Positions 6,001 to 11,573 of a stretch of 11,573 nucleotides of DNA are shown here, one piece after another; within the stretch, counting starts at the first letter, position 1, and each line of letters starts with the position of its first letter. A program made the position numbers. The stretch comes from a virus: UHGV virus genome UHGV-1580203; one strand, 5' to 3'.

Positions 6001-9000
6001 TACTCAGTGTTTGTTCGGTAAATTGTTTTTGCTTACCCGTTTCTAAGCGCGAGATGTTCGCCGCATCTACTCCTATCGCTTCAGCGAGATCGGCGATTTT
6101 CATGTTCTTCGCTTGGCGAAGTTGTCTGACTCGGTTTCCTATGTTCATGCGTTTATTACATTTCTTTATTGCGTGATAAGCAAATCAACTTGCGCAAAAT
6201 AATTGCGTGAAATAACATGCATAACGCGCAATATTTGGAGGGCGTATGCAATCACCATTACGAAATGTGCGTAAGGCGCATGGTTTCACTTTGCAGCATG
6301 TTGCTGCGGGTGTTCAAGTCAATCCAGCGACGTTGAGTCGTATTGAGAGGCTGGAGCAGATTCCATCTATCGAGCTTGCAGAACGTTTAGCCAATTTTTT
6401 TAAGGGTGAAGTCAGCGAAATGCAGATTCTTTATCCGGCACGTTTTCAATCTAGCCAAAACCAGAATGGGTTTAAACCACAGGAACAGGAGGTGAACCGT
6501 GGGTAAGCATCACTGGAAAGTAGAAAAACAGCCTGAGTGGTACGTGAAAGCTGTCAGAAAAACTATCGCAGCGTTGCCGGGGGGGTACGCTGAAGCTGCT
6601 GACTGGCTGGATGTAACAGAGAACGCATTATTTAACCGCCTTCGTGCCGATGGCGATCAGATTTTCCCGCTGGGATGGGCAATGGTTTTGCAACGTGCTG
6701 GTGGAACTCACTTCATTGCTGACGCTGTGGCGCAGTCTGCAAATGGCGTCTTTGTGTCTCTTCCTGATGTCGAGGATGTGGACAACGCCGATATCAACCA
6801 ACGCCTGCTGGAGGTCATTGAACAGATCGGCAGTTATTCAAAACAGATTCGTTCAGCAATTGAAGACGGTGTAGTGGAACCGCATGAGAAGACAGCAATT
6901 AACGACGAGCTGTACCTCTCAATTTCGAAGCTGCAGGAGCATGCAGCACTGGTCTACAAAATCTTTTGCGTTTCAGAAAGTAGTGACGCCCGCGAGTGTG
7001 CAGCTCCGGGCGCCGTGGCGTGTCGTGACTGTGGAGAAACTAACGCATGAACAGTTTAACAACACACTACCGTCGCTCGCAACTGATTGCGCTTCCTGTA
7101 CCGGGTGGAAAAGCGAAGGTGGAGTATTGCTATGCAGTAAATGTACCAGGTGACAGGGAAATTGTAACCCACAGCTTTGCTGAGTGGGCTGTGGGTGATT
7201 TCAACCGGCAGAAGGAGACAGTCCTTTGCGACAAGTTAACCGCTGGTTCAAAGATCACTACGGAGTGCCCGTCAGAGTCATTCGTTGGGAGCCGGAAACA
7301 CAACGAGTTATCTACCTCCGCGAAGGCTATGAGCATGAGTGCTTCAGCCCGCTCGAACAGTTTCGTCGTAAATTCAGGGAAATAGAGGTCGGTCATGAGC
7401 ACTAAATTAACCGGCTATGTATGGGATGGTTGCGCTGCATCAGGCATGAAATTATCCAGCGTGGCAATTATGGCCCGCCTGGCTGATTTCAGTAATGACG
7501 AAGGTGTGTGTTGGCCATCAATTGAAACCATTGCCCGTCAGATTGGCGCGGGGATGAGTACCGTCAGGACGGCTATCGCACGGCTGGAAGCAGAAGGCTG
7601 GTTAACGCGTAAGGCGCGTCGCCAGGGTAACCGCAATGCGTCGAATGTTTATCAGCTTAACGTTGCGAAGCTTCAGGCAGCGGCATTTTCTCAACTGTCA
7701 GATTCTGACCCGTCAAAATCTGACGCATCAAAATCTGACCCGTCAAAATTTGATGCGTCGAAATCTGGCAAAAAAGCGGGTTTTCACCCGTCAGAATCTG
7801 GCGGGGATCCGTCAGTAAAATCAAAACATGATCCGTCAGATAAAAAACCTTCTCGTCCGGACGCTTCGCAACCGGACACGCAGACGGATGAACAGGATTT
7901 TTTAACTCGCCATCCTGATGCGGTTGTATTCAGCCCTAAAAAGCGCCATTGGGGAACGCAGGATGATTTGACCTGCGCACAGTGGCTCTGGAAAAAAATC
8001 ATCGCCCTGTACGAGCAAGCCGCCGAATGTGACGGCGAGGTGGTTCGTCCCAAAGAACCGAACTGGACAGCCTGGGCAAACGAAATTCGCCTGATGTGTG
8101 TGCAGGATGGTCGTACTCACAAACAAATCTGCGAGATGTACAGCCGCGTCAGCCGCGATCCGTTCTGGTGCCGTAACGTGCTCAGCCCGTCGAAGTTGCG
8201 GGAAAAATGGGATGAGCTTTCCCTGCGCTTATCACCGTCCGTCAGCACGTACACCGAAAAACGCGAAGACCCGTACTTCAAATCCAGTTACGACAACGTG
8301 GACTACAGCCAGATCCCGGCAGGATTCAGGGGGTGATCATGAGTCTTTTGAATGAAGTTCAGAAATTCATTGAAGCCCATCCGGGATGTACTTCCGGAGA
8401 CATTGCGGATGCTTTTGCAGGTTACTCACGGCAGCGCGTTCTGCAGTCAGCAAGCAAGTTACGTCAGAGTGGGCGTGTGGCTCACCGTTGTGAAGGAGAT
8501 ACACGCAGACATTTCCCGCGCCTGACTGAGAGAGCGCAGGAACCGGAACCACAACCAGTTCGAGAAACCAGACCTGTGCGCAATTTCTATGTCGGCACTA
8601 ACGATCCACGGGTGATTTTGTGCCTGACCCGCCAGGCTGAAGAACTGGAGTCCAGGGGCTTATACCGTCGTGCTGCAACCGTGTGGATGGCGGCATTCCG
8701 TGAAAGCCACTCCCAGCCAGAACGAAACAATTTTCTGGCGCGTCGTGAGCGGTGCTTACGGAAAAGCAGCAAGCGCGCTGCATCGGGTGAAGAGTGGTAT
8801 CTGTCAGGGAATTACGTGGGGGCTTAATGACGACGTTAACTCAATGCCAGCAGCAGGTGCTGGATATGCTGATTTCTTACCAGAAAGAACGTGGCTTCCC
8901 GCCAACCAATCAGGAGGTGGCTACCATGCTGGGATACCGTTCAGTGAATGCAGCGGTGGAGCATCTTCGCGCACTGGAGAAAAAAGGCGTCATCACGATA

Positions 9001-11573
9001 AAGCGTGGCGTGGCCCGGGGCATCACGCTTCATACCGCGGTGAAGGACGACGACAGCGAGGTGGCCGGGATTATCCGCGCACTGCTTGCTGGTGAGGAAA
9101 ACGCCAGGCTGCGTGCAGCCCACTGGTTACATGAGAGGGGGCTGAAAGTATGAAGCTGATTCTGCCTTTTCCACCCAGCGTGAATACCTACTGGCGACAC
9201 CCCAACAAAGTGGCATTTGCTGGTAAGAGCCTGATAAGCGCGGCGGGGCGAAAATTCCAGAGTGCGGCGTGCACAGCAATAGTTGAGCAGTTACGTCGTC
9301 TGCCGAAACCAACGTCGGCACCTGCTTCAGTGGAGATCGTGTTGTTTCCTCCGGATAACCGGATCCGCGATCTGGACAACTATAACAAGGCGCTGTTTGA
9401 CGCCCTGACCCACGCGGGTGTGTGGGAAGACGACAGCCAGGTGAAAAGAATGCTGGTGGAGTGGGGACCGGTTATCCCGGAAGGGAAGGTCGAGATCACT
9501 ATCAGTAAGTACGAGAAAACGGCGGGTGCAGCCGCCTGATCAAGAGGAGAAACGAAGTATGAATAATCTGATGGTCATTGATGGTATTGAAGTTCGTCGT
9601 GATGCTTATGGGCGTTACAGCCTGAACGATCTGCACAGGGCTGCCGGTTCTCTGGATAAGCATAAGCCTGCATTCTGGCTCCGCAATGAGCAAACTGAAC
9701 GTTTAATAAGCGAGTTGCAGATTTGCAACTCGGTCAATATAGAGCCAGTTAACGTTATTCGTGGCGGAAATAACCAGGGGACGTATGTCTGCAAAGAACT
9801 GGTGTATGCCTATGCAATGTGGATCAGCCCGTCATTCCATCTGAAGGTGATCCGTACTTTCGATATGGTAACCAGCGCATCGGAAAAATTATCCGGGCAG
9901 GCTGCTGACAAGATGCAGGCTGGCGTGATTCTGCTGGACTTTATGCGCCGGGAGTTAAACCTGTCTAACTCTTCAGTGCTTGGTGCCTGTCAGAAACTCC
10001 AGGAGGCTGTTGGCTTACCGAATCTGGCACCGCGCTATGCCATTGATGCTCCTGCTGACGCGCCTGATGGCTCAAGCCGCCCCACGCTGTCACTGAGTGC
10101 ACTGCTGAAGCAGTATGGTATCCGCCTGACAGCTAATCAGGCATATCACCAGATGGTGAAGCTGGGGATCGTCGAGCAGCGCGAACGATACAGCCGTACC
10201 GCGATTAACAACATCAAAAAATTCTGGTCGCTGACAGCGAAAGGCTGCATGTTCGGCAAGAACATCACCAGTCCCGCAAATCCGCGCGAGACGCAGCCGC
10301 ATTTCTTCGAATCCCGATTCCCTGAGCTGTTAAAGCTGCTCGATACCGTTCATTGAGGTGACCGTGAGAGCACTATTGACCCCTGAAATTGCCCCGCGTA
10401 TGGGGATCGTATTGTTCAGGCCCGGTTCAGAGCTGATGCCCCTGTTTATGCAGGGGCGTGTACTGCTGGAGCCTGAGCCGGAGCATTATTCATCTTTCGC
10501 CAGTGGTGCCGTTCCCGCGGCATCACAACCGCTGGCGGATGATCCTGCCGTTCGGGCCGTGTTCCGTAATGAGGCAGTGATTCGTCGTGCTGGTGGGGTG
10601 GAATGTCTTGAAAGCTGGTTACTTCGTGAAAAAGGCTGCCAGTGGCCTCATTCCGACTGGCACAGCGAGAACATGACCACAATGCGACACGCGCCGGGCG
10701 CAATCCGTCTGTGCTGGCACTGCGATAATCAGTTACGTGATCAGTTCACGGAGCGGCTGGAATCAATGGCAACGGATAACTGTGCCCGTTGGGTGTTGTC
10801 TGTAGTCCGTCGGGATCTCGATTTTAATGATAACCATGCCGTGACAATGCCGGAACTGTGCTGGTGGCTGGTTCGTAATGACCTGGCGGATGCCTTACCG
10901 GAAAGCGCAGCCCGTAAGGCACTGAGATTACCGAAGTCTGTTTTGCCGTCTGTCACCCGGGAAAGTGACCTTGTGCCTTCGGTTCCTGCCACCAGCATCA
11001 TCCAGGATAAGGCGAAAAAGGTGCTGGCGCTGAAAGTGGATCCGGAGTCGCCGGAGTCTTTTATGTTACGCCCCAAACGTCGTCGCTGGGTTAATGAACA
11101 GTACACGCGCTGGGTTAAGACGCAGCCGTGTGCATGTTGTGGAAAGCCAGCTGATGATCCGCATCATCTGATAGGCCATGGTCAGGGTGGAATGGGTACA
11201 AAAGCGCATGACCTTTTTGTGCTGCCTTTGTGCAGAAAACACCACGACGAACTGCATGCGGATACCGTGGCATTTGAAGAGAAGTATGGCTCCCAGCTGG
11301 AGCTGATATTTCGTTTTATCGATCGCGCACTGGCGATTGGTGTGCTGGCCTGATTTTGTGGAGAAAGTTAATGCGTGATATTCAGATGGTTCTTGAACGT
11401 TGGGGAGCGTGGGCGGCTAATAATCATGAAGATGTGACCTGGTCGTCCATTGCCGCCGGTTTTAAGGGATTAATTCCTTCAAAAGTAAAATCTCGCCCGC
11501 AATGTTGTGACGATGACGCGATGATCATTTGCGGGTGCATGGCCCGTCTGAAAAAGAACAACAGCGATTTACA

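What the first reader, a model, noticed from the sequence alone, without database searches (positions are those of the whole stretch)
8827..9153. Phage-encoded LexA DNA-binding domain without the autocleavage domain
The 108-aa protein aligns by eye with the LexA N-terminal domain through the recognition helix: RSVNAAVEHLRAL here versus RSPNAAEEHLKAL in LexA. After about residue 70 it has only a ~40-aa helical tail. There is no Ala-Gly cleavage site and no Ser/Lys peptidase domain.

Such a protein could occupy SOS boxes without being cleavable, acting as an uninducible mini-LexA. Or it could compete with host LexA. It is in the rightward operon, so it would be made after induction, when host LexA is depleted.

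The same prophage carries a perfect SOS box inside its own cI gene (5920-5939), which would be an obvious target. A self-contained phage LexA-paralogue plus SOS-box circuit would be unusual.
Basis: partly seen in the sequence, partly recalled or inferred. Interest (0 to 1): 0.6.

Follow-up and report, generated by a model that had tools for sequence, protein, structure and literature searches.

The report
Phage LexA-like DNA-binding protein, no protease

Summary
Window 8827-9153 encodes a 108-aa protein. Residues 1-70 are a true LexA N-terminal winged helix: Pfam PF01726 covers the full domain, and the model superposes on DNA-bound LexA at 1.0 A. Residues 75-103 form a two-helix tail that is conserved in the family and matches nothing known. 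There is no S24 peptidase domain.

The gene is not unusual. It is SfV Orf42 / PHROG 362. It occurs in 2233 of 5426 complete E. coli genomes and across Enterobacteriaceae. It nearly always sits directly upstream of rusA in the nin region. Stand-alone LexA domains are common in phages, and GIL01 gp6 is a characterised one (an activator).

The "uninducible mini-LexA on SOS boxes" idea is weakened but not excluded. N41, E45, S39 and A42 are kept. E44 and R28 are near-invariant in true LexAs (28/31 and 29/31) but absent from all 40 family members sampled, and helix 3 varies between subfamilies.

The "self-contained circuit" is not supported. The SOS box at 5920-5939 is real and travels with the cI allele; ST64B has the box but no mini-LexA. 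Only 19 of 73 related phage contigs carry both.

Most likely this is a RecA-insensitive dimeric regulator with its own LexA-derived operator. Its target is unknown.

The parts
8827..9153 (+). Gene for the 108-aa LexA-NTD-plus-tail protein (SfV Orf42 / PHROG 362 family), stop codon included
   Evidence: ORF. PF01726 E 2.9e-19. PHROG 362 full length, E 7e-58. RefSeq annotates it as 'LexA family transcriptional regulator'.
8827..9033 (+). Residues 1-69: LexA-type winged helix-turn-helix domain (H6-22, H28-35, H40-52, strands 56-58 and 66-68)
   Evidence: AF2 model. Foldseek hit to 3jso_B at rmsd 1.0 A, 50% identity. phmmer hit to 1lea at 8e-16.
8944..8982 (+). Residues 40-52: recognition helix (V40 N41 A42 A43 V44 E45 H46...). 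N41, A42 and E45 are as in LexA; S39, also kept, lies one codon upstream of this range. E44 is replaced by Val.
   Evidence: Alignment. Contact residues taken from PMC3091678 and bioRxiv 10.1101/2020.07.14.201889. Family and LexA residue counts.
9049..9135 (+). Residues 75-103: family-specific two-helix tail (hydrophobic stripes V79/I82/I83/L86/L87 and A93/A97/W100/L101). Inferred to be the dimerisation element. Contains A88-G89 at nt 9088-9093.
   Evidence: AF2 pLDDT about 85. Conserved down to about 36% identity; A97 invariant, A93 and L101 at least 90%. No PDB or Pfam match. hhalign against LexA ends at residue 74.
9150..9539 (+). rusA (Holliday-junction resolvase). Its start codon overlaps the mini-LexA stop (ATGA). 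Conserved downstream partner.
   Evidence: PF05866 E 8.5e-15. Adjacent in 77 of 79 IMG/VR loci. Also adjacent in mEp390, Cronobacter, Salmonella and Atlantibacter relatives.
8333..8827 (+). PerC-domain (YfdN-like) gene. Its stop overlaps the mini-LexA start (TAATG). This upstream neighbour is variable.
   Evidence: PF06069 E 7.8e-9. The upstream neighbour is dam in 48, perC-like in 28 and other in 4 of 80 loci.
5920..5939 (.). Canonical SOS (LexA) box TACTGTTTTTATATACAGTA inside the cI linker codons. It belongs to the cI allele, not to the mini-LexA module.
   Evidence: Conserved in cI alleles of SfII, mEp460, ST64B and Klebsiella phage 1 LV-2017. Co-occurs with the mini-LexA in only 19 of 73 loci.
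5456..6148 (-). cI-type repressor (HTH_3 plus Peptidase_S24), RecA-cleavable type
   Evidence: PF00717 E 6e-19 and HTH_3. Terminator-like site immediately after it at 5436-5419.

Best explanation
The gene encodes a small DNA-binding regulator derived from the LexA N-terminal domain. It has lost the S24 peptidase and dimerisation domain and carries instead a conserved two-helix tail of about 35 aa.

Expression. It is translated from the rightward delayed-early transcript, coupled to the genes on either side. It should therefore appear only after infection or induction.

Mechanism. Lacking the S24 domain, it cannot respond to RecA* (shown). The tail most likely makes it a dimer, so that two LexA-type winged helices bind a palindromic operator (inferred). 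That operator is LexA-derived but probably not the canonical host SOS box. The whole family has replaced two DNA-contact residues that true LexAs keep (E44 and R28), and its recognition helix diversifies between phage lineages whose hosts share one SOS box.

Role. It is best read as a phage-specific transcription factor of the nin-region module (methylase/PerC, mini-LexA, RusA, KilA-N/ANT, DUF968, Q). This is analogous to the truncated LexA homologue gp6 of phage GIL01. It is not a dedicated partner of the SOS box in cI. Its target site and its sign (repressor or activator) remain unknown.
For: Domain identity and structure. The absence of a protease domain follows.

The tail is conserved across E. 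coli, Salmonella, Citrobacter, Cronobacter, Klebsiella, Enterobacter and Atlantibacter relatives at 36-65% identity. A97 is invariant and A93 and L101 are at least 90% conserved.

Residue counts. E44 is present in 0/40 of the family against 28/31 of S24-bearing LexA relatives found by the same search. R28 is 0/40 against 29/31.

Helix-3 variants include SVNAAVEH, SPNAAAEH, SPNAATDM, SANGAFEH, SPNAANDH and SSNAVLLH. Within the E. coli subfamily helix 3 is nearly invariant, which suggests a functional DNA-binding surface.

Synteny is conserved with overlapping stop and start codons.

Independent assortment from SOS boxes.

Precedent: GIL01 gp6 is a truncated LexA homologue that binds a different palindrome and activates a late promoter (PMC6182141).
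Against: - No candidate operator was found. Scans for CTGT-variant palindromes and for inverted repeats in the window and in related phages gave only canonical SOS boxes, origin iterons and coding-sequence palindromes.
- In this E. coli subfamily the two residues described as the key base contacts (N41, E45), plus S39 and A42, are all retained, and P40V lies within normal LexA variation. Binding to CTGT half-sites therefore remains plausible.
- LexA DNA-binding domains fused to unrelated dimerisers do repress at SOS operators (PMC12430536).
- Dimerisation through the tail is inferred from amphipathic helices only. No multimer model or experiment was available.
Confidence: 0.45

Rival explanations
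1. Uninducible mini-LexA. The protein dimerises through its tail and occupies canonical SOS boxes. Because it cannot be cleaved, it re-represses LexA-controlled promoters during lytic growth after host LexA has been destroyed. Those promoters include host SOS genes, LexA-controlled antirepressors of rival prophages, and the box inside its own cI.
For: The NTD is 50% identical to E. coli LexA and superposes on the DNA-bound form at 1.0 A. S39, N41, A42 and E45 are retained, as is the wing R64-G65-I66. N41 and E45 are described as the key base contacts. LexA DBD plus any dimeriser gives repression at the SOS operator. Klebsiella homologues lie just downstream of an SOS box and a dinI gene, an SOS-modulating context. 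A perfect SOS box is present in this prophage.
Against: - E44 and R28 are near-invariant in true LexAs but replaced in all 40 family members sampled.
- Helix 3 varies between subfamilies. Klebsiella members have L44 L45 although the host SOS box is the same.
- The gene shows no linkage to SOS boxes. 41 of 73 related contigs have none in the DNA held, and ST64B has the cI box without the gene.
- In an infected, undamaged cell the protein would be redundant with intact LexA.
Confidence: 0.27
2. DNA-binding accessory of the recombination module. The winged helix and tail act with RusA and/or the DUF968 HNH-type protein, for example by targeting or modulating junction resolution, rather than regulating transcription.
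For: The gene is translationally coupled to rusA here (ATGA overlap). rusA is adjacent in 77 of 79 close loci and in most distant relatives. DUF968 lies downstream in every lineage examined.
Against: The LexA NTD is a sequence-specific transcription-factor fold, and no precedent for such a role was found. In the Klebsiella loci examined (L006-L008) rusA is absent; in the related Enterobacter locus a 67-aa ORF separates the two genes. Synteny in mosaic nin regions can be purely modular.
Confidence: 0.1
3. Decoy or pseudo-substrate. The tail, which contains A88-G89 at the place where MAFFT aligns the LexA cleavage site, docks into the S24 active site of LexA or cI. There it acts as a competitive inhibitor or as a substrate cleaved in trans.
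For: An Ala-Gly-Glu string in the tail aligns with LexA A84-G85-E86 in one multiple alignment. The TIGR00498 match extends to position 91.
Against: Profile-profile alignment with LexA ends at residue 74. The Ala-Gly is absent from most family members. The segment is confidently helical, unlike a cleavage loop.
Confidence: 0.03

Closest known systems
E. coli LexA N-terminal DNA-binding domain (PDB 1lea, 3jso)
   Same: Same fold and clear homology: PF01726 full length, 50% identity and rmsd 1.0 A over 68 columns. S39, N41, A42, E45 and the wing R64-G65-I66 are conserved.
   Different: No S24 peptidase or dimerisation domain, so there is no RecA*-stimulated autocleavage. E44V, R28N and R7C substitutions. 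Carries an unrelated two-helix C-terminal tail.
SfV Orf42 / SfII_44 / mEp460_046 ('LexA DNA binding domain protein'; PHROG 362; NCBI 'LexA family transcriptional regulator')
   Same: 94-97% identical over the full length, in the same position upstream of rusA. The window protein is simply a member of this family.
   Different: Nothing material. The upstream neighbour here is the PerC-like gene instead of dam. My searches of the held library found no functional study of this family.
GIL01 (Tectiviridae) gp6, a truncated LexA homologue
   Same: A temperate-phage protein consisting essentially of a LexA DNA-binding domain without the catalytic domain, made early in the lytic programme (PMC6182141).
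   Different: gp6 comes from a Bacillus tectivirus and is derived from a Gram-positive LexA. No tectivirus or Bacillus phage was among the 61 phage records matched at E<=1e-5. gp6 is shown to activate late promoter P3 at GaCACAnnTGTGaC. Neither target nor sign is known here, and lambdoid late genes use Q antitermination.
Engineered LexA-DBD fusions (LexA-based bacterial two-hybrid)
   Same: Same architecture: a LexA DNA-binding domain joined to a heterologous dimerising segment. Such fusions repress at SOS operators and cannot be cleaved (PMC12430536).
   Different: Those constructs use the wild-type LexA helix 3. The natural protein has E44V and R28N, and its tail has not been shown to dimerise.

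Membership tests
Canonical LexA repressor (TIGR00498) | N-terminal LexA-type winged HTH (PF01726) | tested here: met
   PF01726 1-65/65, E 2.9e-19. 3jso_B rmsd 1.0 A.
Canonical LexA repressor (TIGR00498) | C-terminal S24 peptidase domain with the Ser119/Lys156 dyad, which also serves as the dimer interface | tested here: not met
   The protein ends at residue 108. No PF00717 hit. TIGR00498 scores 67.4 bits against a cut-off of 110.95 and matches model positions 1-91 only.
Canonical LexA repressor (TIGR00498) | Ala84-Gly85 cleavage site in the linker | tested here: inconclusive
   A88-G89 exists and was aligned to A84-G85 by MAFFT. But hhalign stops at residue 74, the dipeptide is not conserved in the family, and the segment is predicted helical.
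Canonical LexA repressor (TIGR00498) | Full set of DNA-contact residues (S39, N41, A42, E44, E45; backbone R28) | tested here: not met
   S39, N41, A42 and E45 are kept. E44 is Val and R28 is Asn. Family versus true LexAs: E44 0/40 against 28/31; R28 0/40 against 29/31.
Canonical LexA repressor (TIGR00498) | Specific binding to CTGT-N8-ACAG SOS boxes | not testable with these tools
   Needs EMSA, ChIP or a protein-DNA co-folding model.
Short phage LexA-NTD proteins of lambdoid phages (PHROG 362 / SfV Orf42) | Full-length match including the C-terminal tail | tested here: met
   PHROG 362 1-108 against 1-106/106, E 7e-58. Tail consensus conserved.
Short phage LexA-NTD proteins of lambdoid phages (PHROG 362 / SfV Orf42) | Position in the nin region immediately upstream of rusA, between the replication genes and Q | tested here: met
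   77 of 79 IMG/VR loci.
GIL01 gp6-type truncated LexA activators | Temperate-phage protein made essentially of a LexA DBD without a catalytic domain | tested here: met
   Definition taken from PMC6182141.
GIL01 gp6-type truncated LexA activators | Sequence kinship with tectiviral gp6 | tested here: not met
   tblastn of phage records at E<=1e-5 returned only enterobacterial phages. This looks like an independent capture of a LexA NTD.
GIL01 gp6-type truncated LexA activators | Binds its own palindrome overlapping a -35 element and activates a late promoter | not testable with these tools
   No candidate site found. Needs experiment.
   19 of 73 contigs have the cI box and 41 of 73 have none in the DNA held. 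SfV and mEp390 have the gene without a cI box. ST64B has the box without the gene.

The most novel reading that the evidence does not exclude
Despite E44V and R28N, the E. coli subfamily still binds CTGT-N8-ACAG boxes as a tail-mediated dimer. If so, prophages in about 40% of E. coli genomes would carry an uncleavable LexA surrogate that closes the SOS regulon again during lytic growth. That would include LexA-controlled antirepressors of competing prophages and the conserved SOS box inside cI. It would amount to a widespread phage-encoded SOS shut-off and inter-prophage competition factor.
Probability: 0.25. Interest if true: 0.65.

Novelty: new member of a known kind. Interest (0 to 1): 0.35.

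Why it matters
If the protein binds SOS boxes, a large share of E. coli and other enterobacterial prophages would be able to switch the host DNA-damage response back off once they have been induced. That would matter for mutagenesis, for antibiotic-triggered prophage induction (Stx2 phages carry the gene) and for competition among co-resident prophages.

If it has its own operator, as I think more likely, it is an unrecognised regulator in the lambdoid delayed-early programme, sitting in a module present in thousands of genomes. Either way, the function of a gene found in 41% of complete E. coli genomes is untested in the literature I could search.

As a finding it is modest. The gene is already catalogued, stand-alone LexA domains are common in phages, and the proposed circuit with the cI SOS box is not supported.

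Tried and rejected
- Generic wHTH. Rejected: LexA structures lead by three orders of magnitude in Foldseek E-value, with 50% identity.
- Tail homologous to the LexA linker and cleavage region. MAFFT and the TIGR00498 envelope suggested it. hhalign ends at residue 74, and the Ala-Gly is not conserved.
- Tail matching a known dimerisation domain. A profile search of the PDB and a Pfam scan of three tails gave nothing significant; best E values were 0.24 and 0.04.
- An own operator. Inverted-repeat search of 4400-11573 and scans for single-base variants of CTGT half-sites with spacers of 6-10 in the window, SfV, SfII, mEp460, mEp390, Klebsiella, Cronobacter and ST64B loci. These gave only canonical SOS boxes, ori iterons in the O-like gene and palindromes inside conserved coding sequence.
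- Separate promoter for the gene. The 'dam promoter' annotated in SfV lies in the PerC-like gene, is a weak match, and is altered here. The consensus scan found no promoter-like site on the + strand after 4488.
- Defence-system membership. PADLOC gave only marginal hits.
- Literature. Ten searches found no functional study of the lambdoid family and no report of the SOS box inside cI. The primary LexA-DNA structure paper could not be read, so contact residues are cited from secondary sources.
- A dimer or protein-DNA structure prediction could not be run with the tools available.

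
Full report
**What is there.** Window 8827-9153 (+) is an ATG-to-TGA ORF of 108 codons. It lies in a lambdoid prophage integrated at a tRNA-Arg gene next to fimZ.

The gene order is as follows:
- int (68-1231, minus strand)
- cI with an HTH and an S24 peptidase domain (5456-6148, minus strand)
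- cro (6246-6506)
- a CII/CP76-type gene (6499-7050)
- an O-like replication gene with iterons (7395-8336)
- a PerC-domain gene (8333-8827)
- the target (8827-9153)
- rusA (9150-9539)
- a KilA-N gene
- a DUF968/HNH gene (10358-11353)
- Q lies just beyond the window

The target's start overlaps the PerC-like stop (TAATG) and its stop overlaps the rusA start (ATGA). All genes from cro to DUF968 are on one strand and abut one another. I infer that the target is a delayed-early product of the rightward operon. The simple consensus scan listed no promoter-like site on the + strand after 4488, so it gives no sign of a separate promoter for the gene.

**Is it LexA-like?** Yes, and specifically so.
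- Pfam PF01726 (LexA_DNA_bind) matches end to end, 1-65 of 65, E 2.9e-19.
- The best solved relatives are the E. coli LexA NTD and full-length LexA, E 8e-16 to 5e-15 over residues 2-70.
- An AlphaFold2 model built on a 40-sequence family alignment has mean pLDDT 82. It shows helices 6-22, 28-35 and 40-52 and strands 56-58 and 66-68.
- Foldseek places the model on LexA in its operator complex (3jso_B) at rmsd 1.0 A over 68 columns with 50% identity, E 1e-6. The first non-LexA structure has E 8e-3.

There is no S24 domain. No PF00717 hit was found, and the NCBIfam lexA equivalog scores 67 bits against a cut-off of 111, covering only model positions 1-91.

**The tail.** Residues 75-88 and 93-103 are predicted as two helices with pLDDT about 85, after a low-confidence linker. 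The tail is not a random extension. Relatives at 36-65% identity from Salmonella, Citrobacter, Cronobacter, Klebsiella, Enterobacter, Atlantibacter and Kosakonia keep it. The consensus is ..A..LLRAL...E..ARERAI.FL...G, with A97 invariant and A93 and L101 at least 90% conserved.

The tail matches nothing in the PDB or Pfam. Profile-profile alignment of the family against true LexAs ends at residue 74. Each helix has an i/i+3/i+4/i+7 hydrophobic stripe. I infer a helical hairpin that pairs into a dimer, but this was not tested.

One detail of the finding is wrong. The tail does contain Ala-Gly (A88-G89), and MAFFT aligned it with LexA A84-G85. It is not conserved in the family, and the segment is predicted helical, so I do not regard it as a cleavage site.

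**How common is it?** Very common.
- The protein is 94-97% identical to SfV Orf42, SfII_44 and mEp460_046, and to genes in cdtI and in Stx2a and Stx2c phages. These are annotated 'LexA DNA binding domain protein' or 'transcriptional repressor'.
- It matches PHROG 362 over its full length.
- The gene is present in 2233 of 5426 complete E. coli genomes, with up to 4 copies per genome.
- A family profile finds 3126 proteins at E<=1e-5.
- BFVD holds many viral proteins of 65-150 aa that consist of a LexA DNA-binding domain alone, from Caudovirales, a mycobacteriophage and Tectiviridae.
- One such protein has been studied. GIL01 gp6 is a truncated LexA homologue that binds its own palindrome and activates the late promoter (PMC6182141).

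My searches of the held library found no functional study of the lambdoid family.

**Context across the family.** In 80 IMG/VR contigs with a 96-100% identical gene, rusA is adjacent in 77 of 79. The upstream gene is dam in 48, the PerC-like gene in 28 and something else in 4.

Relatives at 40-55% identity keep the order methylase, mini-LexA, RusA, KilA-N or Rha/ANT, DUF968, Q. This holds in mEp390 and in Cronobacter, Salmonella and Atlantibacter prophages. In the Enterobacter locus a 67-aa ORF lies between the gene and rusA. In the Klebsiella loci rusA is absent, and the gene lies downstream of a perfect SOS box and a dinI homologue.

**Would it bind SOS boxes?** Secondary sources list the LexA contacts as S39, N41, A42, E44 and E45 in helix 3 (PMC3091678). 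They name N41 and E45 as the key base contacts and R28 as a backbone contact (bioRxiv 10.1101/2020.07.14.201889).

The phage protein has S39, V40, N41, A42, A43, V44 and E45, with N28 and C7. I compared two sets of proteins:

| Position | S24-bearing LexA relatives, plus E. coli LexA (n=31) | Tail-bearing phage family (n=40) |
|---|---|---|
| E44 | 28/31 | 0/40 (A, L, F, T, V, N or Y) |
| R28 | 29/31 | 0/40 |
| 40 | variable (A, P, V, I, T) | variable |
| 45 | E or D in 26/31 | E 21, D 9, L 6, T 2, G 1, A 1 |

The variation at position 40 means P40V is unremarkable. Because position 45 also varies, helix 3 differs between subfamilies although their hosts share one SOS box. Variants include SVNAAVEH, SPNAAAEH, SPNAATDM, SANGAFEH, SPNAANDH and SSNAVLLH. 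Within the E. coli subfamily helix 3 is almost invariant.

This pattern is what one expects of a DNA-binding protein whose target co-evolves with the phage. It is not what one expects of a protein that must fit the invariant host SOS box.

Two points cut the other way. The E. coli subfamily is the one closest to LexA. And LexA DNA-binding domains joined to arbitrary dimerisers do repress at SOS operators (PMC12430536). SOS-box binding by this particular protein therefore cannot be excluded.

**The proposed circuit with the cI SOS box.** The box TACTGTTTTTATATACAGTA at 5920-5939 is real. It is the only exact CTGT-N8-ACAG in the window, and the full pattern occurred in 0 of 200 shuffles. However, it belongs to the cI allele.
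- SfII has the identical cI and box, and mEp460 has a 96% identical cI with the box.
- ST64B has an 83% identical cI with an exact box but no mini-LexA gene.
- SfV, mEp390 and Cronobacter prophages have the mini-LexA without a box in cI.
- Of 73 IMG/VR contigs with at least 4.5 kb held upstream of the gene, 19 have this cI allele, all with the box. 41 have no AT-spacer SOS box anywhere in the DNA held. 16 have a different box 4-5 kb downstream.

The two features assort independently. A dedicated circuit is not supported.

**Mechanism.** I commit to the following.
- Shown: the protein is a LexA-derived winged-helix protein, and it lacks the RecA-responsive domain.
- Inferred: it is made with the delayed-early genes, it dimerises through the tail, and it binds a palindromic operator.
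- Inferred from the residue statistics: that operator is LexA-derived but not the canonical SOS box.

The protein would then be a phage-specific regulator comparable to GIL01 gp6. I give this 0.45. The uninducible mini-LexA reading gets 0.27, an accessory role in the RusA/DUF968 module 0.10, and a pseudo-substrate role 0.03. The rest is unassigned. No operator could be found by palindrome scans. That is the main weakness of the preferred explanation.

**Novelty and score.** The gene is an ordinary member of a catalogued, very abundant phage family. The kind of protein (a phage LexA NTD without a protease) is known. What is unknown is its function in lambdoid phages. I rate it 'new member of a known kind' with interest 0.35. 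A by-product of the check seems at least as interesting as the original finding: the SOS box is conserved inside the otherwise variable linker-coding part of cI (see the items noticed in passing).

Noticed in passing
window 5920-5939 (inside cI, 5456-6148 minus strand); also L004 5971, L012 28520, L013, L014-L016: The SOS box inside cI is conserved across cI alleles down to about 67% protein identity, in SfII, mEp460, ST64B and Klebsiella phage 1 LV-2017. In phiNP, Flotzy and Eeyore one base differs (CCAG). The surrounding linker is highly variable, yet the left half TACTGTA is invariant, including at synonymous positions. The box always lies 17 nt after TTTAC(C/A). cI is followed directly by a terminator (5436-5419). 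A LexA-controlled leftward promoter inside cI could therefore only make a C-terminal cI fragment; an in-frame GTG at V83 is preceded by GAGGA. I found no report of this.
   Followed up: partly
L001 (SfV) 11907-11926; L004 (mEp460) 15022-15041; 16 of 73 IMG/VR loci at about +4 to +5 kb from the mini-LexA gene: A second recurrent SOS box, TACTGTAAAAATAAACAGTG, overlaps the start codon of a late-region DNA methyltransferase gene (SfV orf48). This suggests LexA control of that methylase. It is not present in this window.
   Followed up: no
L006-L008 (Klebsiella prophages) 5385-6393: Klebsiella homologues of the mini-LexA (40% identity, helix 3 SSNAVLLH) lie downstream of a perfect SOS box (TACTGTTTATTTATACAGTA) and a dinI gene, apparently in one rightward unit. 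They may therefore themselves be LexA-controlled. An AAA_15/DUF4435 gene pair lies nearby.
   Followed up: partly
proteins P0129, P0130, P0146, P0150-P0153, P0157-P0160 and others: Many metagenomic proteins carry two LexA_DNA_bind stretches in a single chain. These could be single-chain pseudo-dimers that need no dimerisation domain.
   Followed up: no
window 7697-7759 (inside the O-like gene 7395-8336): A cluster of inverted and direct GTCAnAnTCTGAC repeats, typical of lambdoid origin iterons inside the initiator gene.
   Followed up: no
window 8333-8827: The upstream neighbour is a 164-aa YfdN-like protein with a PerC transcriptional-activator domain (PF06069, residues 100-151). PerC homologues are known as virulence-gene activators, so this may be another prophage regulator worth testing.
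   Followed up: no
window 4494-4997 (+), between the left operon and cI: A 167-aa ORF on the opposite strand to its neighbours, annotated as hypothetical in RefSeq. It has no Pfam or PADLOC match. Its position is that of a moron.
   Followed up: partly
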